DNA of 13,222 bases, taken from IMG/VR virus record IMGVR_UViG_2654588181_000002, positions 1 to 13,222 of that record. The stretch is one strand, 5' to 3'. Positions 2,042 to 12,958 of this stretch are shown here, piece after piece. Origin of the DNA: a virus. Taxonomy: Duplodnaviria > Heunggongvirae > Uroviricota > Caudoviricetes. The notes under the pieces were generated by a model. That model was not told the DNA's origin. It was given only the letters and a program-made list of their open reading frames with translations, and did no database searches. How positions within the stretch are numbered: the stretch's first letter is position 1; the number at the start of each line of letters is the position of its first letter. Both the position numbers and the translations under genes were made by a program.

Positions 2042-2870
2042 GACGATGCCCTCCGCTGATATTCAGGAGACGGTGAATATGAAAATTAGCCTTATCCGCC
2101 AGACGAATACGTTCAGCTTGCAAGTTAAGAAGGGTTTCTACCAGAACCTGATGTGCCTGCGGATCCGAAAGAGTTACCTTGCGCAGAGCACGTAGTGCAG
2201 CTGTTACATAACTGAGTTTATGTAAGTCTTCATCATTCAGACGAGTGAGGGCTGGGACAGTAGCCATGATGGCAGCCTCCTTGATCGGTGAAATACTTCC
2301 ACCACCGGAAACGCCAATTTCGCTGGTGGTGAACTGAACGGGGTTGGCGTAACCGGTGATCAAGGAAACCGGCGCATCTTTCGATGCCCCCGCCCAGCCC
2401 ACCATAACTTTGATGTGAGCAAATGCGGACGATAAAAAAGACGCTGGCGCGTCATATATCGCCTTGATCAATTCCAGGACGCCAATCCCGGCACCCGCTT
2501 TATAAGGTGCCTGAACAGTGTAACGTCCCGGAATGGCAGAATCAATGTGCTGGTGGTCCTTCACACTCAACAAAATCACGCCTGAATTTCCACAAAGGGC
2601 TAAAGCACTCATGCGGGTAGTCTTTGCGAAGATAGATAACGCGCTGTGTTTCTGGCTCCCAACGAATAACATGAACATAAAGTCCTCTTCCGTCACGAAA
2701 CCAGCGGTTAAGTTCCTGCACAACTCGCCCCCCACAGTCAGGTAAAGTTCTCTGTGGTTACTTACAGCCAGGAGATTTGGTAATCTGCATTCATGCCGTA
2801 ACAACAGGTGTTCAGCGACGCTGACCACCAGCTGTTGCGACAAACGGTTATTTGCCGTTAAACTGTTCAT
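2034..2870 (-). CDS. hypothetical protein (278 aa) in the lambdoid replication-gene position; function unknown
   Basis: Long ORF with ATGA overlap to the upstream CII-like gene (2867-2870). No Walker A/P-loop, no N-terminal HTH and no other motif I can assign. Confidence 0.6.
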   Translation of the reverse strand: MNSLTANNRLSQQLVVSVAEHLLLRHECRLPNLLAVSNHRELYLTVGGELCRNLTAGFVTEEDFMFMLFVGSQKHSALSIFAKTTRMSALALCGNSGVILLSVKDHQHIDSAIPGRYTVQAPYKAGAGIGVLELIKAIYDAPASFLSSAFAHIKVMVGWAGASKDAPVSLITGYANPVQFTTSEIGVSGGGSISPIKEAAIMATVPALTRLNDEDLHKLSYVTAALRALRKVTLSDPQAHQVLVETLLNLQAERIRLADKANFHIHRLLNISGGHRHA

Positions 2871-3436
2871 GCGTTAGTTTCTCCACAACCAGAAGCAATC
2901 GACGCCACGACGCCCGGAGCTGCACACTCGCGGGCGTCATTACTTTCTGAAATGCAAAAGATTTTGTAGACCAGTGCTGCATGCTCCTGCAGCTTCGAAA
3001 TTGAGAGATACAGCTCGTCGTTAATTGCTGTCTTCTCATGCGGTTCCACTACACCGTCTTCGATTGCTGAACGAATCTGTTTTGAATAACTGCCGATCTG
3101 TTCAATGACTTCCAGCAGACGCTGGTTAATATCGGCGTTGTCCACATCCTCGACGTCAGGAAGAGACACAAAGACGCCATTTGCAGACTGCGCCACAGCG
3201 TCAGCAATGAAGTGAGTTCCACCAGCACGTTGCAAAATCATTGCCCATCCCAGCGGGAAAATCTGATCGCCATCGGCACGAAGGCGGTTAAATAATGCGT
3301 TCTCTGTTACATCCAGCCAGTCAGCTGCTTCAGCGTAACCACCCGGCAACTTTGCGATAGTTTTTCTGACAGCTTTCACGTACCACTCAGGCTGTTTTTC
3401 TACTTTCCAGTGATGCTTACCCACGGTTAGCCTCAT
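2867..3436 (-). CDS. phage CII-like regulatory protein (YmfL/YdaT-like)
   Basis: 189 aa, immediately downstream of the Cro-like gene on the same strand, in the cII position of a lambdoid immunity region. Resembles the e14 YmfL / Rac YdaT group (memory-based). No obvious Shine-Dalgarno upstream of the ATG at 3434-3436. Confidence 0.6.
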   Translation of the reverse strand: MRLTVGKHHWKVEKQPEWYVKAVRKTIAKLPGGYAEAADWLDVTENALFNRLRADGDQIFPLGWAMILQRAGGTHFIADAVAQSANGVFVSLPDVEDVDNADINQRLLEVIEQIGSYSKQIRSAIEDGVVEPHEKTAINDELYLSISKLQEHAALVYKIFCISESNDARECAAPGVVASIASGCGETNA

Positions 3437-3467
3437 CGTTCTGTGGTTAAAAATTGAAAGTGTTCTG

Positions 3468-3668
3468 CTAATCTTTCGGATAGATATCCGGTCTTAAGTC
3501 AGATTTCGTAATTGCACCTGACGTGCATTGCTCAAGTTTTTTAGCCAGCACAAAACTGGCTTTTTTATAGCCATTGAAAACCAGCCGTAAGTAGCCAGGT
3601 GTTGAGCCAACTTTTCCGGCCAACTCGCCCTGCTGTTCTTTGGTTAAAGAGTCCCAATACGCTTTCAT
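3468..3668 (-). CDS. Cro-like HTH regulator (YdaS/CroE-like)
   Basis: 66-aa product MKAYWDSLTKEQQGELAGKVGSTPGYLRLVFNGYKKASFVLAKKLEQCTSGAITKSDLRPDIYPKD, divergent from the CI-like gene. GGAGG lies 10 nt upstream of the chosen ATG (3666-3668). The longer ORF-track version (to 3971) would overlap the repressor gene and is rejected. Confidence 0.7.
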   Translation of the reverse strand: MKAYWDSLTKEQQGELAGKVGSTPGYLRLVFNGYKKASFVLAKKLEQCTSGAITKSDLRPDIYPKD

Positions 3669-3670
3669 AC

Positions 3671-3758
3671 AATATGTACCTCCGGTGTACATATTACATG
3701 ATTGAAATGAACCTTCAAGATACTTGTACCTTAACGGTACAAGAGTTTTAATTTCGTT
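3671..3758. promoter_or_regulatory. divergent immunity-switch control region: two inverted-repeat operators plus candidate pR (minus) and pRM (plus) promoters
   Basis: Operator 1 is AATATGTAC-N7-GTACATATT (3671-3695, perfect 9-bp arms). Operator 2 is CTTGTACC-TTAAC-GGTACAAG (3723-3743, perfect 8-bp arms). Candidate pR on minus strand: -35 TTGAAG (3719..3714), 17-bp spacer, -10 TAATAT (3696..3691), overlapping operator 1. Candidate pRM on plus strand: -35 TTGTAC (3724-3729), 17-bp spacer, -10 TTTAAT (3747-3752), ending about 7 nt before the repressor ATG. Confidence 0.6.
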
Positions 3759-4433
3759 ATGAAAACAATCCATGACATCCGGCGGTCTAACGCCAGAAAA
3801 CTGAGAGATGGTGTTGGCGGGAATTCTTCCTTTGCCACTATGATTGATCGCGAGCCAACCCAGACCAGCAGGTTTATGGGAGATGGTGCTACTAAAAATA
3901 TCGGTGACAGCATGGCACGACACATCGAAAAATGTTTCGACCTGCCTGTCGGATGGCTCGATCAAGAACACCAGACAACGAACATCACAAAAAAACCTGA
4001 TGTTTCAATCACTAATAAACAAATCACATTAGTCCCTGTCATATCATGGGTACAGGCCGGAGCATGGAAAGAAGTTGGATATTCTGAGGTTGATTTGAGC
4101 ACAGCAGAAACGTATCCCTGCCCTGTACCCTGTGGGGAAATGACTTATATCTTGCGGGTGATAGGTGATTCAATGATTGATGAGTACCGCCCGGGAGACA
4201 TGATTTTTGTCGATCCTGAAGTACCTGCCTGCCACGGTGACGACGTTATTGCATTGATGCACGATACAGGTGAAACCACCTTCAAAAGGTTGATAGAAGA
4301 TGGGACACAGCGTTATCTCAAAGCGTTAAACCCAAACTGGCCTGAGCCTTACATTAAGATCAACGGTAATTGCTCTATAATTGGTACAGTGATTTTCTCA
4401 GGAAAACCAAGAAGATACAAAATCAAAGCCTAA
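3759..4433 (+). CDS. CI-like prophage repressor (HTH + LexA-like S24 autopeptidase domain; CohE-like)
   Basis: 224 aa with an N-terminal HTH region and a C-terminal S24-type domain (VIGDSM... and FKRL Ser/Lys dyad context). Divergent from the Cro-like gene, and no Shine-Dalgarno before the ATG, consistent with a leaderless pRM transcript. Confidence 0.9.
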   Translation: MKTIHDIRRSNARKLRDGVGGNSSFATMIDREPTQTSRFMGDGATKNIGDSMARHIEKCFDLPVGWLDQEHQTTNITKKPDVSITNKQITLVPVISWVQAGAWKEVGYSEVDLSTAETYPCPVPCGEMTYILRVIGDSMIDEYRPGDMIFVDPEVPACHGDDVIALMHDTGETTFKRLIEDGTQRYLKALNPNWPEPYIKINGNCSIIGTVIFSGKPRRYKIKA

Positions 4434-4444
4434 TCAATGTTTAT

Positions 4445-4468
4445 GAACCTGCTTCGGCAGGTTTTTTT
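4445..4468 (+). terminator. intrinsic terminator downstream of the repressor gene
   Basis: ACCTGC-TTCG-GCAGGT hairpin (4447-4462, UUCG tetraloop) followed by a run of seven T (4462-4468), 12 nt after the repressor stop. Confidence 0.75.
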
Positions 4469-4472
4469 ATAC

Positions 4473-4505
4473 TTGACAATGTACCTTTGAGATACATAAT
4501 GTACC
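4473..4505 (+). promoter_or_regulatory. candidate early-left promoter (pL-like) with repressor half-sites
   Basis: -35 TTGACA (4473-4478), 16-bp spacer, -10 CATAAT (4495-4500). The ATGTACC motif occurs twice (4480-4486 and 4499-5505 region, second copy at 4499-4505), sharing the GTAC core of the operators at 3671-3743. Confidence 0.6.
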
Positions 4506-4582
4506 CAAGCGAAACAACGAACAGGCAGGACGCCCACGAAGTAGCCGCCTGGGGCATATGAAGTCCAGGATGATTCGTTAGC

Positions 4583-4608
4583 AACAAAAAAGCGCCTACA
4601 GGACGCTT
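4583..4608 (-). terminator. candidate intrinsic terminator on the minus strand, downstream of the 4845-5279 gene
   Basis: Minus strand reads AAGCGTC-CTGTA-GGCGCTT followed by TTTTGTTGC (plus coordinates 4590-4608 for the hairpin, A-run 4586-4591). It lies about 240 nt beyond the minus-strand gene's stop and inside the 5' leader of the plus-strand 68-aa gene. Confidence 0.45.
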
Positions 4609-4666
4609 AGCTCTTTAACAATCTGGTCCCCATCAACAAGTAACTGATAACTTGAGGAGATGTGAA

Positions 4667-4873
4667 ATGCACAAAACAGAACCCAAAATCGTCGCGCCTG
4701 GCTACACAGATGAGGAAATTTATGAGTGGATGACAAAGAAGCTGGCAGCTATAAACCAGCTTCGTGAAGTGCTGTCTTATCGACAGGAAACAATAGACTC
4801 CTTAAAAAAACTGGATCAGGAAATCACGGTTTTATCACAGGATGTTACTTTAGATATTGTGCAGACAAATTAG
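4667..4873 (+). CDS. hypothetical small acidic, predicted coiled-coil protein (68 aa), first gene after pL
   Basis: ATG at 4667 preceded by GAGGAG (4655-4660); the ORF-track 4652 start would be a TTG. Product MHKTEPKIVAPGYTDEEIYEWMTKKLAAINQLREVLSYRQETIDSLKKLDQEITVLSQDVTLDIVQTN. Not N-like (not Arg-rich). The 3' end overlaps the convergent minus-strand gene by 29 nt. Confidence 0.5.
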   Translation: MHKTEPKIVAPGYTDEEIYEWMTKKLAAINQLREVLSYRQETIDSLKKLDQEITVLSQDVTLDIVQTN

Positions 4874-5279
4874 GATCCCATTCATTTTCGTCAAAATCAT
4901 CAAAGTGATGAATTTGTGATCTCCAGTCTCGATAATCTAAAAATTTCTGGGCGGTTACGCTTATTTTATCAAGTGTGAGTTCATCCTGAATTGAAAGAAG
5001 AAGTTCATCAAATTTCATCTCATTAATCTGTTTTGGCATCCAGTGATGCTTCATCAGAATAAGGTGAACCAGAGCCTTTTTCCCATTCAACTGATTATAG
5101 GGAGTGCCGAATTTCTTCCGGTGCTCATGTAAGACAAGGTCCAAAAGAGTAAGTAATGTTGCCCTTGATTCAACTTTGCTTATTTCGACTGATGACACTA
5201 CCCCACTGATTTCAATGCCCCGATACTTTCCAACATTTTCACAGTGGGATTTGTACAGCGTATAGATATTACCGGACAT
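4845..5279 (-). CDS. hypothetical protein (144 aa), AT-rich antisense 'moron' gene; function unknown
   Basis: Clean 144-codon ORF opposite to all neighbouring early-left genes, visibly more AT-rich than its flanks, with an AGGA-like RBS upstream of the ATG (5277-5279) and its own candidate terminator. No family recognised. Confidence 0.6.
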   Translation of the reverse strand: MSGNIYTLYKSHCENVGKYRGIEISGVVSSVEISKVESRATLLTLLDLVLHEHRKKFGTPYNQLNGKKALVHLILMKHHWMPKQINEMKFDELLLSIQDELTLDKISVTAQKFLDYRDWRSQIHHFDDFDENEWDPNLSAQYLK

Positions 5280-8322: not shown

Positions 8323-8672
8323 TGGAGCCATACAGCCTCACACTCGATGAGGCCTGTCATTTTCTCAAGATATCCAGACCGACTGCCATTAACTGGATAC
8401 GCACAGGGCGTCTTCAGGCAACACGCAAAGATCCCACTAAGAATAAATCTCCTTACCTCACAACACGACAAGCCTGCATTGCGGCTCTTCAGTCTCCGCT
8501 GCATACTGTCCAGGTGAGCGCGGGTGATGGCATAACAGAGGAAAGAAAATGTCACTCTTCCGCAGAGGTGAAATATGGTACGCCAGTTTCACATTGCCGA
8601 ACGGTAAAAGATTTAAACAGTCTCTTGGAACAAAGGACAAAAGGCAGGCGACAGAACTCCATGACAAGCTAA
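8322..8672 (+). CDS. AlpA/Xis-type excisionase / DNA-binding regulator
   Basis: N-terminus [38 protein letters not shown]... is the AlpA-family HTH. ATG 8322 with GAGG (8311-8314) upstream. The ORF runs 116 codons and its last 124 nt overlap the integrase start in another frame, so the true C-terminus is uncertain. Confidence 0.7.
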
Positions 8673-9712
8673 AGGCTGAAGCATGGCGGGTCAGCAAACT
8701 TGGTGAAATACCTGATATAACGTTCGAGGAAGCGTGTGTCAGGTGGCTTGAAGAGAAAGCACATAAAAAATCACTGGACGATGACAAAAGCCGGATCGGA
8801 TTCTGGCTTCAACATTTCGCAGGAATGCAACTAAGAGACATTACTGAATCAAAAATTTATTCAGCAATGCAGAAAATGACGAACCGGCGTCATGAGGAAA
8901 ACTGGAAACTCAGGGCAGAAGCATGCAGAAAAAAAGGGAAACCTGTTCCAGAATACACGCCAAAACCAGCGTCCGTTGCAACGAAGGCTACGCATCTTTC
9001 ATTTATAAAGGCCCTACTAAGAGCCGCAGAGCGTGAATGGAAAATGCTGGATAAGGCACCAATTATTAAAGTGCCTCAACCAAAGAATAAACGGATCCGC
9101 TGGCTGGAGCCCCATGAAGCACAAAGGCTGATTGATGAATGTCCGGAGCCATTAAAGTCTGTTGTTGAATTTGCACTGGCAACAGGCTTAAGACGCTCGA
9201 ACATCATCAACCTTGAATGGCAACAAATAGATATGCAGCGCCGGGTGGCATGGATAAACCCGGAAGAGAGTAAATCAAACCGCGCAATTGGCGTTGCGCT
9301 GAATGATACTGCATGTCGCGTATTGAAAAAACAAATCGGGAATCATCACCGTTGGGTATTTGTGTACAAGGAAAGCTGTACCAAACCAGACGGAACGAAA
9401 GCGCCAACAGTAAGGAAGATGCGGTATGACGCAAACACAGCCTGGAAAGCGGCGCTGAGACGGGCTGGTATTGATGATTTCAGATTTCACGACTTGAGAC
9501 ACACCTGGGCAAGTTGGCTGGTTCAAGCCGGAGTCCCGTTGTCAGTGTTACAGGAAATGGGAGGCTGGGAGTCTATCGAAATGGTTCGTCGATATGCTCA
9601 CCTTGCACCTAATCACCTTACCGAACACGCACGGCAAATAGACTCGATCCTGAACCCATCGGTCCCAAATTTGTCCCAGTCAAAAAATAAGGAAGGTACT
9701 AATGATGTGTAA
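8549..9712 (+). CDS. tyrosine recombinase, phage integrase (e14 IntE-like)
   Basis: 387 aa. N-terminus [34 protein letters not shown] and C-terminal catalytic region ...[42 protein letters not shown] (R..H..R..Y). Stops 14 nt before the 3' end of the tRNA. Confidence 0.95.
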
Positions 9713-9725
9713 CTTATTGATTTTA

Positions 9726-9801
9726 ATGGTGCCGATAATAGGAGTCGAACCTACGACCTTCGCATTACGAATGCGCTGCTCTACCAACTGAGCTATATCG
9801 G
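9726..9801 (-). tRNA. thrW: tRNA-Thr (anticodon CGU)
   Basis: Minus strand reads GCCGATATAGCTCAGTTGGTAGAGCAGCGCATTCGTAATGCGAAGGTCGTAGGTTCGACTCCTATTATCGGCACCA: 7-bp acceptor stem, anticodon loop UUCGUAA, T-loop GGTTCGA, encoded CCA. Sits between proA and the integrase, as expected for a thrW-integrated island. Confidence 0.97.
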
Positions 9802-9854
9802 CCCTGAAAGGACATGTTCACGAACGTGAATCACGGTGGACAAGGTTAAAACTA

Positions 9855-12682: not shown

Positions 12683-12958
12683 GTGGCTTCTGTTTCTATC
12701 AGCTGTCCCTCCTGTTCAGCTACTGACGGGGTGGTGCGTAACGGCAAAAGCACCGCCGGACATCAGCGCTATCTCTGCTCTCACTGCCGTAAAACATGGC
12801 AACTGCAGTTCACTTACACCGCTTCTCAACCCGGTACGCACCAGAAAATCATTGATATGGCCATGAATGGCGTTGGATGCCGGGCAACCGCACGCATTAT
12901 GGGCGTTAGCCTCAACACGATTTTACGCCACTTAAAAAACTCAGGCCGCAGTCGGTAA
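12683..12958 (+). CDS. insA: IS1 InsA (transposition inhibitor / N-terminal part of the InsAB' transposase)
   Basis: 91-aa product [91 protein letters not shown] with a zinc-finger-like CxxC...CxxC N-terminus. Confidence 0.95.

What the first reader, a model, noticed from the sequence alone, without database searches (positions are those of the whole stretch)
3671..4505. Immunity switch looks intact: GTAC-core operators, leaderless repressor mRNA and a strong pL-like promoter
Two perfect inverted repeats sit between the divergent Cro-like and CI-like genes, overlapping the candidate pR -10 and pRM -35 elements. The repressor ATG has no Shine-Dalgarno and lies about 7 nt after the predicted -10, as for lambda cI from pRM. 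Downstream of the repressor there is a textbook terminator and then a near-consensus promoter carrying two more ATGTACC half-sites. The repressor has an S24 autopeptidase domain, so the remnant may still respond to SOS signals and derepress its cargo even though it cannot form particles.
Basis: partly seen in the sequence, partly recalled or inferred. Interest (0 to 1): 0.4.

Follow-up and report, generated by a model that had tools for sequence, protein, structure and literature searches.

The report
Known e14/SfV-type phage immunity switch

Summary
Window 3400-4516 is the cI/cro immunity module of Shigella phages SfIV and SfV and of the E. coli K-12 e14 element (ymfK/cohE and ymfT/croE), at 98-99% DNA identity. 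The repressor protein is 100% identical to that of isolated phages, and 2168 of 5426 complete E. coli genomes have a match.

I find five 17-bp operators of the form TGTAC-N7-GTACA. The other two interleave with the TTGACA-16-CATAAT pL promoter just after the cI terminator.

Half-sites, promoter hexamers and the -10-to-ATG geometry are kept in relatives down to 52% repressor identity, while the operator spacers vary.

The leaderless start has been mapped experimentally for e14 ymfK (leader length 0). The window is identical to e14 there except for one base at -15.

The S24 domain keeps the Ala-Gly cleavage site, Ser138 and Lys176. Published K-12 data show e14 genes co-induced with SOS genes.

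Repressor binding and cleavage were not tested for this copy. Interest is low.

The parts
3468..3668 (-). cro-like gene (66 aa; ortholog of e14 ymfT/croE and SfV cro)
   Evidence: ORF. PHROG 35 transcriptional repressor, E = 3e-15. Pfam YdaS_toxin/HTH_3 weak hits. Annotated cro or ymfT in matching records.
3675..3691 (.). OR1 operator, TGTACCTCCGGTGTACA (the perfect palindrome extends to 3672-3694). It covers the last base of the pR -10, the predicted pR start and the cro Shine-Dalgarno sequence, whose complement CCTCC forms the spacer.
   Evidence: Half-sites are invariant and the spacer variable in SfV, Hafnia, Edwardsiella, Serratia, Providencia and Salinicola relatives.
3691..3718 (-). Predicted pR: -35 TTGAAG (3718-3713), 16-nt spacer, -10 TAATAT (3696-3691). 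The predicted start is near 3684, giving a leader of about 17 nt carrying GGAGG.
   Evidence: Read from the sequence. Only 8/12, so not significant by score. The same positions read TTGAAG/TTGCAG-16-CATAAT in Serratia, Edwardsiella and Providencia. No start-site data found.
3708..3724 (.). OR2, a degenerate operator, TGAACCTTCAAGATACT. Its centre is 43 bp upstream of the cI start. Its spacer contains the pR -35.
   Evidence: 3 mismatches to the motif. 16 of 20 positions are identical to OL1 with flanks. Conserved in all relatives; the left half is a full TGTACC in Providencia and Salinicola.
3725..3741 (.). OR3 operator, TGTACCTTAACGGTACA (perfect palindrome 3723-3743). Its left half is the pRM -35.
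   Evidence: Conservation.
3724..3759 (+). pRM: -35 TTGTAC (3724-3729), 17-nt spacer, -10 TTTAAT (3747-3752). Transcription start = A of the cI ATG (3759), giving a leaderless mRNA.
   Evidence: Geometry. The start site was mapped in e14 ymfK with leader 0 (PMC4681348 Table S3). The window is identical to e14 except at 3744. A -10 lies 6-7 nt before the ATG in all relatives.
3759..4433 (+). CI-type repressor (224 aa; ortholog of e14 CohE/YmfK; 100% identical to SfIV cI). N-terminal helical DNA-binding domain 1-~70, linker, cleavage site Ala100-Gly101, S24 domain with Ser138 and Lys176.
4445..4471 (+). Intrinsic terminator of the cI transcript (8-bp stem, UUCG loop, T7)
   Evidence: Annotated as a terminator in the SfV and Ayreon records.
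4473..4500 (+). pL-like promoter, TTGACA-16-CATAAT
   Evidence: Annotated as a promoter in phage Ayreon. Conserved in Hafnia, Edwardsiella, Serratia and Providencia.
4480..4496 (.). OL1 operator, TGTACCTTTGAGATACA, filling the pL spacer
   Evidence: It is a perfect palindrome in Edwardsiella and Providencia.
4500..4516 (.). OL2 operator, TGTACCCAAGCGAAACA, covering the pL start region. Its right end coincides with the mosaic boundary of the immunity module.
   Evidence: The Edwardsiella version is TGTACTTATAAGATACA. Matches in Ayreon, 2H10, cdtI and the Stx2c phages end at query 1117 = window 4516.

Best explanation
This is a lambda-type bistable immunity switch of the e14/SfV specificity.

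Lysogenic state (inferred). Dimers of the 224-aa repressor bind 17-bp operators of the form TGTAC-N7-GTACA.
- At OR, occupancy of OR1 blocks pR at its -10, start site and cro ribosome-binding site. Occupancy of OR2 blocks the pR -35.
- OR2 is centred at -43 from the cI start, the position from which lambda CI activates pRM. OR3 lies over the pRM -35 and can shut cI off, whether bound by excess repressor or by Cro.
- cI is transcribed from pRM as a leaderless mRNA that begins at the A of its ATG, and transcription stops at the hairpin at 4445-4471.
- Immediately downstream, OL1 and OL2 sit in the spacer and at the start of a strong pL. This silences the leftward operon (small ORFs, YfdQ/YfdR-like genes, xis, int).

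Induction (inferred). After DNA damage, RecA filaments stimulate self-cleavage of the repressor at Ala100-Gly101 by the Ser138/Lys176 dyad. pR and pL are then freed, and Cro binds the same operators to lock cI off.

Shown: the sequence anatomy, its non-randomness and its conservation; the identity with e14/SfV/SfIV; the intact catalytic residues; and, in the literature for e14, the leaderless start and co-induction with SOS genes.

Inferred: actual binding, the order of operator affinities, activation from OR2, cleavage, and the behaviour of Cro.
For: - Identity with a known module. SfIV matches at 98.8% over the whole query, SfV at 98.2% and K-12-like e14 at 98.5%. The repressor is 100% identical to SfIV, Ayreon and PhiR29/PhiR49 cI. 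The OR region is identical to e14 across 3640-3743.
- Operators are non-random.
- Conservation. Half-sites, the pR and pRM hexamer positions, the -10-to-ATG distance and pL/OL1 are kept in Hafnia (80% aa), Serratia (76%), Edwardsiella (74%) and Providencia (60%). Salinicola (52%) keeps the OR features but has no pL/OL, since a zeta-toxin gene follows its repressor gene. Operator spacers vary freely.
- Repressor domains. Ala-Gly, Ser and Lys align with lambda cI A111-G112, S149 and K192. Gln99, Ala100, Ser138 and Lys176 are at least 90% conserved across 35 family members; Gly101 falls just below that. The AlphaFold model (pLDDT 79.5) best matches the lambda repressor cleavage-site/C-terminal fragment, then LexA and UmuD; the N-terminal helices match SPC32H Rep.
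- Related operator core. The Rep homolog's own operator regions carry TTACC-N5-GGTAA palindromes, the same xTACC-N5-GGTAx core.
- Literature on e14. The ymfK start site has leader 0. SOS-type co-induction of ymfJ, xisE and ymfL is reported. The YmfT iModulon groups e14 genes with sulA and recN. cohE is listed as Keio-essential.
- Module boundary. It ends exactly at the end of OL2.
Against: - No binding, cleavage or transcript data exist for this copy.
- pR and pRM score only 8/12 and are statistically unremarkable as hexamer matches.
- No start site for pR or pL was found in the supplement searched.
- OR2 has 3 mismatches, and such matches are at chance frequency window-wide (31 found against 38 expected). 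It is supported only by position and conservation.
- Unlike lambda, the perfect palindromes are OR1 and OR3. OR2 and OR3 abut, with centres 17 bp apart, so lambda's affinity order and pairwise cooperativity cannot simply be transferred.
- The N-terminal domain is invisible to Pfam.
- A second regulatory layer (C4/isrK-like RNAs) sits in the pR operon and could modify induction.
Confidence: 0.83

Rival explanations
1. The switch is present in sequence but no longer operates in this remnant. It would be silent, or uncoupled from SOS, with expression of the flanking genes governed by other factors such as H-NS, the neighbouring IS elements or the convergent ECs1072-family gene.
For: The prophage is heavily deleted. 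The O-like replication gene is truncated at about 1500 and joined to tail-fibre fragments and an IS. No expression data exist for this strain.
Against: All parts are intact and essentially identical to those of isolated phages and of e14. e14 is itself a defective remnant, and its genes still co-induce with SOS genes; its repressor gene is also listed as essential.
Confidence: 0.08
2. Induction works mainly through an antirepressor or antisense-RNA circuit rather than repressor autocleavage. This would resemble the SPC32H Rep/Ant system and the P1 immI (C4) or Gifsy-1 isrK systems.
For: The N-terminal domain's closest solved relative is SPC32H Rep, which is inactivated by an antirepressor. The pR operon carries strong Rfam hits to C4 antisense RNA (82 bits) and isrK (64 bits).
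Against: The C-terminal domain here is a complete S24 autopeptidase, with cleavage site and dyad, and differs from Rep's C-terminal domain. No antirepressor-family gene (ANT or Rha) was found in the window. The C4/isrK elements lie downstream of pR, so they are expressed only after derepression. In the K-12-like e14 locus examined, ymfL is followed by a DUF4222 gene rather than the Ash/'immunity region' ORF, and e14 genes still co-induce with SOS genes.
Confidence: 0.07
3. The inverted repeats act as RNA hairpins (terminator or attenuator) rather than protein-binding operators.
For: IR2 followed by AGTTTTAATT was flagged as terminator-like. It folds at -12.7 kcal/mol, z -3.75.
Against: IR2 lies upstream of the mapped cI start and upstream of the pR -35, so neither mRNA contains it. 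The same half-site recurs at OR2, OL1 and OL2, where the arms are imperfect and no comparable hairpin forms. Across relatives the arms are invariant rather than showing compensatory changes.
Confidence: 0.02

Closest known systems
e14 prophage immunity region of E. coli K-12: CohE (YmfK) repressor, CroE (YmfT), ymfJ-side promoter
   Same: 98.5% DNA identity. The OR sequence is identical across 3640-3743. The terminator, pL and OL1 are the same. ymfK mRNA has been mapped as leaderless. e14 is also a defective remnant whose genes are induced together with SOS genes.
   Different: There is one base difference at -15 of pRM (3744) and one in the OL2 spacer (4511). The genes beyond 4582 differ, and so does the chromosomal site (thrW-proA here). 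The window carries an Ash/C4/isrK segment in the pR operon.
cI-cro immunity region of Shigella serotype-converting phages SfIV and SfV (also Ayreon, 2H10, cdtI and the Stx2c phages)
   Same: Repressor protein 99.6-100% identical. The gene order is the same. SfV's record annotates the same 69 bp as a 'putative operator region' and the same terminator. Ayreon's record annotates the terminator and promoter. The window as a whole is an SfV/SfIV-like prophage at thrW.
   Different: In SfV and Ayreon the OR1 right half is ATACA, so the palindrome is imperfect. The window copy is a deletion remnant.
Bacteriophage lambda CI/Cro switch (OR1-3, OL, pRM/pR/pL, leaderless cI, RecA-stimulated cleavage)
   Same: Divergent genes, a tripartite OR, an operator centred near -42/-43 of pRM, leaderless cI, pL downstream of cI with its own operators, and an S24 C-terminal domain that aligns with lambda's including A-G, Ser and Lys.
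   Different: The DNA-binding domain and operator sequence are unrelated. There are two OL sites rather than three. No rex genes are present. OR2 is the degenerate site and abuts OR3 (centres 17 bp apart; OR1-OR2 33 bp). OR1 overlaps the cro Shine-Dalgarno sequence.
Rep repressor of Salmonella phage SPC32H (PDB 5D50)
   Same: Homologous N-terminal DNA-binding domain (phmmer E = 4.7e-4 over residues 1-75). Its operator regions carry 17-bp palindromes with the same xTACC-N5-GGTAx core.
   Different: The window protein's C-terminal half is an S24 autopeptidase whose solved relatives are lambda cI, LexA and UmuD, whereas only residues 1-76 match Rep.

Membership tests
Lambda-type CI/Cro immunity switch with SOS-cleavable repressor | Divergently transcribed repressor and cro genes separated by a short operator/promoter region | tested here: met
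   cro 3668->3468 and cI 3759->4433, with a 90-bp gap.
Lambda-type CI/Cro immunity switch with SOS-cleavable repressor | Repressor with an N-terminal helical DNA-binding domain and a C-terminal S24 domain carrying an Ala-Gly cleavage site and a Ser/Lys dyad | tested here: met
   PF00717, E = 1.5e-26. A100-G101, S138 and K176 align with lambda cI. Q99, A100, S138 and K176 are conserved in at least 90% of the family. Foldseek top hits are lambda cI, LexA and UmuD. The N-terminal domain is a four-helix bundle homologous to SPC32H Rep, although Pfam does not see it.
Lambda-type CI/Cro immunity switch with SOS-cleavable repressor | Several copies of one palindromic operator overlapping pR and pRM | tested here: met
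   OR1, OR2 and OR3 at 3675, 3708 and 3725. Motif enrichment, inverted-repeat statistics and conservation in six lineages. Protein binding itself was not tested.
Lambda-type CI/Cro immunity switch with SOS-cleavable repressor | A second operator cluster on a leftward early promoter downstream of cI | tested here: met
   pL 4473-4500 with OL1 and OL2.
Lambda-type CI/Cro immunity switch with SOS-cleavable repressor | Leaderless cI mRNA from the maintenance promoter | tested here: met
   The geometry is verified and conserved. The start was mapped at the ATG in the e14 ortholog (PMC4681348). It has not been mapped in this strain.
Lambda-type CI/Cro immunity switch with SOS-cleavable repressor | RecA-stimulated autocleavage leading to derepression | not testable with these tools
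   Only indirect evidence: catalytic residues are intact and e14 genes co-induce with SOS genes in the literature.
Lambda-type CI/Cro immunity switch with SOS-cleavable repressor | Cro binds the same operators with a different preference order | not testable with these tools
   Cro is an HTH protein of the YdaS/PHROG 35 type. No binding data.
e14 / SfV / SfIV immunity specificity group | Same repressor protein and same operator sequences | tested here: met
   Repressor 100% identical to SfIV, Ayreon and PhiR29/49, and 99.6% to SfV. OR is identical to e14, and OL1 and pL are identical.
LexA-regulated (SOS box) promoter | CTGT-N8-ACAG box at the promoter | tested here: not met
   The repeats are TGTAC-N7-GTACA, i.e. 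TGT-N11-ACA spacing. There is no CTGT-N8-ACAG box in 3660-3760 or 4470-4520.
SPC32H Rep-type antirepressor-controlled repressor | Rep-type C-terminal oligomerisation domain without S24 peptidase | tested here: not met
   Only residues 1-76 match Rep. Residues 93-217 are S24.

The most novel reading that the evidence does not exclude
The operator geometry of this widespread repressor family has never been dissected biochemically as far as I could find, and it may implement a logic different from lambda's. The geometry is conserved down to 52% repressor identity. OR1 and OR3 are perfect palindromes, while a degenerate OR2 directly abuts OR3 (centres 17 bp apart, about 1.6 helical turns) and lies 33 bp from OR1. 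The cro ribosome-binding site is embedded in the OR1 spacer. One possibility is mutually exclusive occupancy of OR2 and OR3, with OR1-OR2 cooperativity across three helical turns. That would sharpen the change from pRM activation to pRM repression.
Probability: 0.12. Interest if true: 0.3.

Novelty: already known. Interest (0 to 1): 0.1.

Why it matters
The finding adds little new. It shows that an SfV/SfIV-like prophage remnant at thrW-proA has kept a complete, apparently functional SOS-responsive switch. That switch could still drive xis/int and the early genes after DNA damage, as e14 does in K-12.

The practical value lies in annotation:
- The repressor start at 3759 is correct and leaderless. 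Gene callers mis-start the orthologs in other phage records.
- The five operator sites give a usable motif (TGTAC-N7-GTACA) for recognising this immunity type, which occurs in about 40% of complete E. coli genomes.

Tried and rejected
- The primary descriptions of e14 (Mehta et al. 2004, PMC331406) and SfV (Allison et al. 2002) could not be read because the library does not hold them. What those papers say about operators therefore comes only from the SfV GenBank feature table.
- I searched the Romero et al. supplement for pR and pL start sites near e14 coordinates and found none. These promoters are expected to be repressed in a lysogen.
- A literature search for CohE/CroE with word-start matching returned only irrelevant papers. 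The whole-word search found no binding study.
- Pfam on the N-terminal 92 aa gave nothing even at E <= 10. The DNA-binding domain was established instead through PDB sequence hits, PHROGs and a structure model.
- LexA-box reading rejected because the spacing is wrong.
- RNA-hairpin/terminator reading of IR2 rejected because IR2 is not transcribed in either mRNA and its arms are invariant.
- Promoter scoring cannot support pR or pRM.
- The hairpin at 4590-4608 is not a boxB-like element. It is no more stable than shuffles as plus-strand RNA (z = -0.06), and it reads as a minus-strand terminator.
- The boxA-like 12-mer is absent from the other eight loci.
Full report
**What is in the sequence**

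The window carries a cro-like gene (3668->3468, minus strand) and a 224-aa repressor gene (3759-4433, plus strand), 90 bp apart.

- ATATGTAC-N7-GTACATAT at 3672-3694.
- CTTGTACC-N5-GGTACAAG at 3723-3743.

Both are instances of one 17-bp motif, TGTAC-N7-GTACA. With at most 1 mismatch, this motif occurs three times in 13.2 kb (3675, 3725, 4480). The expected number is 0.27, and none of 200 shuffles reached three. Two perfect 8-bp-arm repeats in a fixed 90-bp interval never occurred in 300 shuffles.

Downstream of the repressor gene:
- A hairpin terminator at 4445-4464 plus a T-run, with a UUCG loop, dG -11.6 kcal/mol and z -3.6.
- Nine bases later, TTGACA-16-CATAAT at 4473-4500, an 11/12 match.
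- ATGTACC at 4479 and 4499 heads two 19-nt direct repeats spaced 20 bp apart. These are full operators: OL1 TGTACCTTTGAGATACA and OL2 TGTACCCAAGCGAAACA.

A third site lies at 3708-3724 (AATGAACCTTCAAGATACTT with flanks). It matches OL1 with flanks at 16 of 20 positions, abuts OR3, and is centred 43 bp upstream of the cI ATG.

On the minus strand, TTGAAG (3718-3713), a 16-nt spacer and TAATAT (3696-3691) give a plausible pR.
- Its -35 sits in the spacer of this middle site.
- Its last -10 base is the first base of OR1's right half-site (3687-3691).
- The OR1 spacer CCTCC is the complement of the cro Shine-Dalgarno sequence GGAGG.

On the plus strand, TTGTAC (3724-3729, the left half of OR3), a 17-nt spacer and TTTAAT (3747-3752) give pRM. 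The ATG begins 7 nt after the -10.

A caveat applies to both. pR and pRM match only 8/12 positions, and such matches are as common as in shuffled sequence (242 found, 256 expected). An 11/12 promoter also turns up somewhere in 22% of shuffled windows. The promoter calls therefore have to rest on other evidence.

**Identity of the module**

Window 3400-4700 matches:
- Shigella phage SfIV at 98.8% over its whole length.
- SfV at 98.2%.
- Phages PhiR29/49, Ayreon, 2H10, cdtI and a dozen Stx2c phages at 96-99%.

It has a match in 2168 of 5426 complete E. coli genomes. There the genes are annotated ymfK (LexA family), ymfT and ymfL, which are the names used for the K-12 e14 element.

The repressor protein is 100% identical to that of SfIV, Ayreon and PhiR29/49.

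Existing records already annotate the parts. SfV's GenBank record marks the stretch equivalent to window 3674-3742 as a 'putative operator region' and marks the terminator after cI. Ayreon's record marks the terminator and the promoter.

Matches in Ayreon, 2H10, cdtI and the Stx2c phages end at window 4516, which is exactly the last base of OL2. The exchangeable immunity module thus runs from the cro side to the end of OL2.

**Comparative test of the operators and promoters**

I took repressor homologs at decreasing identity:

| Relative | Repressor identity |
|---|---|
| Hafnia phage yong2 | 80% |
| Serratia prophage | 76% |
| Edwardsiella phage EPP-1 | 74% |
| Providencia prophage | 60% |
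| Salinicola prophage | 52% |

All of them keep:
- OR1 as (T/G)GTACCTCC-N3-RTACA.
- The degenerate OR2 abutting OR3. Its left half becomes the full TGTACC in Providencia and Salinicola.
- OR3 as TGTAmC...GTACA.
- A pR-like TTGNNG-16/17-NANNAT ending at the OR1 half-site. Serratia reaches 9/12 with TTGAAG-16-CATAAT, and Edwardsiella and Providencia read TTGCAG-16-CATAAT.
- A TnTAAT- or TAAATT-type -10 placed 6-7 nt before the repressor ATG.

Where a left operon follows the repressor gene, they also keep TTGACw-16-CATAAT with OL1 between the hexamers. In Salinicola a zeta-toxin gene follows the repressor gene and there is no pL/OL. Operator spacers vary freely while half-sites do not (alignments A2 and A3). 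This is the pattern expected of protein-binding sites and promoters, not of RNA hairpins.

**The leaderless start**

- The ORF cannot start upstream of 3759.
- The N-terminus MKTIxxIRR is conserved in the family and in SPC32H Rep.
- No Shine-Dalgarno sequence precedes the ATG.
- Romero et al. 2014 mapped transcription starts in E. coli K-12 and list ymfK (e14) among only five leaderless mRNAs, with the start site on the first base of the gene (leader 0; PMC4681348, Fig. 2 and Table S3).
- The window is identical to e14 from 3640 to 3743 and differs only at 3744, which is position -15.

**The repressor**

- Pfam sees only Peptidase_S24 at residues 93-212.
- Against PDB sequences, the C-terminal half aligns with lambda cI. 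VQA100-G101 aligns on lambda's VQAG cleavage site, GDS138M on GNS149M, and FK176R on FK192K.
- In a 35-member family alignment, Q99, A100, S138 and K176 are at least 90% conserved.
- An AlphaFold model (pLDDT 79.5) best matches the lambda repressor fragment that contains the cleavage site (36% identity), then LexA and UmuD.
- The N-terminal 75 residues are invisible to Pfam even at E <= 10. They are homologous to the DNA-binding domain of phage SPC32H Rep (PDB 5D50, E = 4.7e-4) and model as a four-helix bundle.
- SPC32H's own repressor-flanking regions are full of TTACC-N5-GGTAA palindromes. These share the xTACC-N5-GGTAx core with the operators here, which fits a shared mode of recognition.

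**SOS responsiveness of a remnant**

The window is a deletion remnant of an SfV/SfIV-like prophage at thrW next to proA:
- tRNA-Thr lies at 9727-9802 and int at 8549-9712.
- Collinearity with complete prophage-bearing chromosomes starts at 1520.
- The O-like replication gene is cut to 104 aa and joined to tail-fibre fragments and an IS.

e14 is the published precedent for a defective element with this same switch:
- Its ymfJ, xisE and ymfL genes cluster with SOS genes (PMC2634741).
- The 'YmfT iModulon' groups e14 genes with sulA and recN (PMC12132413).
- The sfiC/ymfM division inhibitor is SOS-inducible but not LexA-controlled, and has been attributed to CohE control (bioRxiv 10.1101/2020.11.19.390815).
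- cohE is on the Keio list of essential genes (PMC5992433).

It remains untested for this copy.

**Mechanism and differences from lambda**

The best-supported mechanism is a lambda-type switch. The repressor at OR1 and OR2 blocks pR. The OR2 position (-43) suits activation of pRM. OR3 sits over the pRM -35 for shut-off by Cro or by excess repressor. OL1 and OL2 block pL. RecA-stimulated cleavage at A100-G101 releases both promoters.

Differences from lambda:
- The DNA-binding domain and the operator sequence are unrelated.
- There are only two OL sites.
- The degenerate site is the middle one, and it abuts OR3. The OR2-OR3 centres are 17 bp apart and the OR1-OR2 centres 33 bp apart.
- OR1 covers the cro ribosome-binding site.

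Affinity order and cooperativity therefore cannot be read across from lambda, and I found no biochemical study of them.

**Rivals**

- RNA hairpins: rejected. IR2 is not inside either transcript, and its arms are invariant rather than covarying.
- LexA boxes: rejected on spacing.
- Induction through an antirepressor: possible as an additional layer, given the Rep-like N-terminal domain and the C4/isrK hits. However, no Ant/Rha-family protein was seen in the window and the S24 domain is complete.
- A silent relic: cannot be excluded without expression data, but every part is intact.

**Verdict**

The novelty class is 'already known', because this is the e14/SfV/SfIV immunity type. Interest is low.

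Noticed in passing
window 2322-2409 (-) and 2434-2510 (-): Strong Rfam hits to C4 antisense RNA (RF01695, 82 bits) and isrK (RF01394, 64 bits). Both lie inside the 278-aa ORF 2034-2870, which Pfam calls 'Ash family' and SfV annotates as 'immunity region'. The Ash domain (aa 117-210, about nt 2240-2522) overlaps both RNA genes, so that part of the ORF and protein family may be a translation of RNA-coding DNA. This looks like a second, RNA-based regulatory layer (P1 immI / Gifsy-1 isrK type) in the pR operon.
   Followed up: partly
window 4610-4621 (+): An exact 12-mer, GCTCTTTAACAA. I recall this as the rrn-type boxA antitermination sequence. It sits in the roughly 160-nt leader between pL and the first pL ORF (4667-4873). 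With at most 1 mismatch the expected count is 0.09, and 17 of 200 shuffles had a match. It is absent from the eight other loci fetched. No arginine-rich N-like protein is evident. It could be a nutL-like site or chance.
   Followed up: partly
window 4590-4608 and 4738-4763 (- strand); gene 4845-5279 (-): An ECs1072-family gene lies convergent to pL transcription. Two minus-strand terminator-like hairpins follow it, the first inside the 68-aa plus-strand ORF 4667-4873. It looks like a moron-type insertion in the pL operon. How pL transcription passes it is unclear.
   Followed up: no
window about 1494-1520, 1-315 and 12683-12958: There is a deletion joint. The O-like replication initiator is truncated to 104 aa (1494-1808, -) and abuts a tail-fibre C-terminal fragment (856-1506, -) and a tail-fibre assembly gene (444-947, -). 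An IS transposase end lies at 49-315, and an IS1 insA-like ORF lies at 12683-12958 beyond proB. No head, tail-shaft, lysis or Q genes lie in between.
   Followed up: partly
L004 1318-1875 (Hafnia phage yong2) and L005 1135-1869 (Edwardsiella phage EPP-1): The deposited repressor CDS starts look wrong in both records. One is too short, starting 117 nt inside the gene. The other is too long, starting inside the operator region. The conserved MKT... start at about 1201 in both loci, which has no Shine-Dalgarno sequence, fits the leaderless geometry.
   Followed up: partly
L009 570-650 and 1350-1510 (Salmonella phage SPC32H): The regions flanking the Rep repressor gene carry repeated TTACC-N5-GGTAA palindromes. 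These share the TACC-N5-GGTA core with the operators of the window's repressor, whose N-terminal domain is homologous to Rep.
   Followed up: partly
P0001 (homolog, 224 aa) residues about 100-122: One database homolog is 90% identical overall but diverges completely across the cleavage-site region (QGRDTFLLCSNQPQNIQLLSMLR) and then returns to identity. This looks like a double frameshift or a sequencing artefact, which would give a non-cleavable repressor.
   Followed up: no
L004 2067-2140: Hafnia phage yong2 carries a tRNA-Gly(CCC) gene in its pL leader, at the position where the window has the boxA-like sequence.
   Followed up: no
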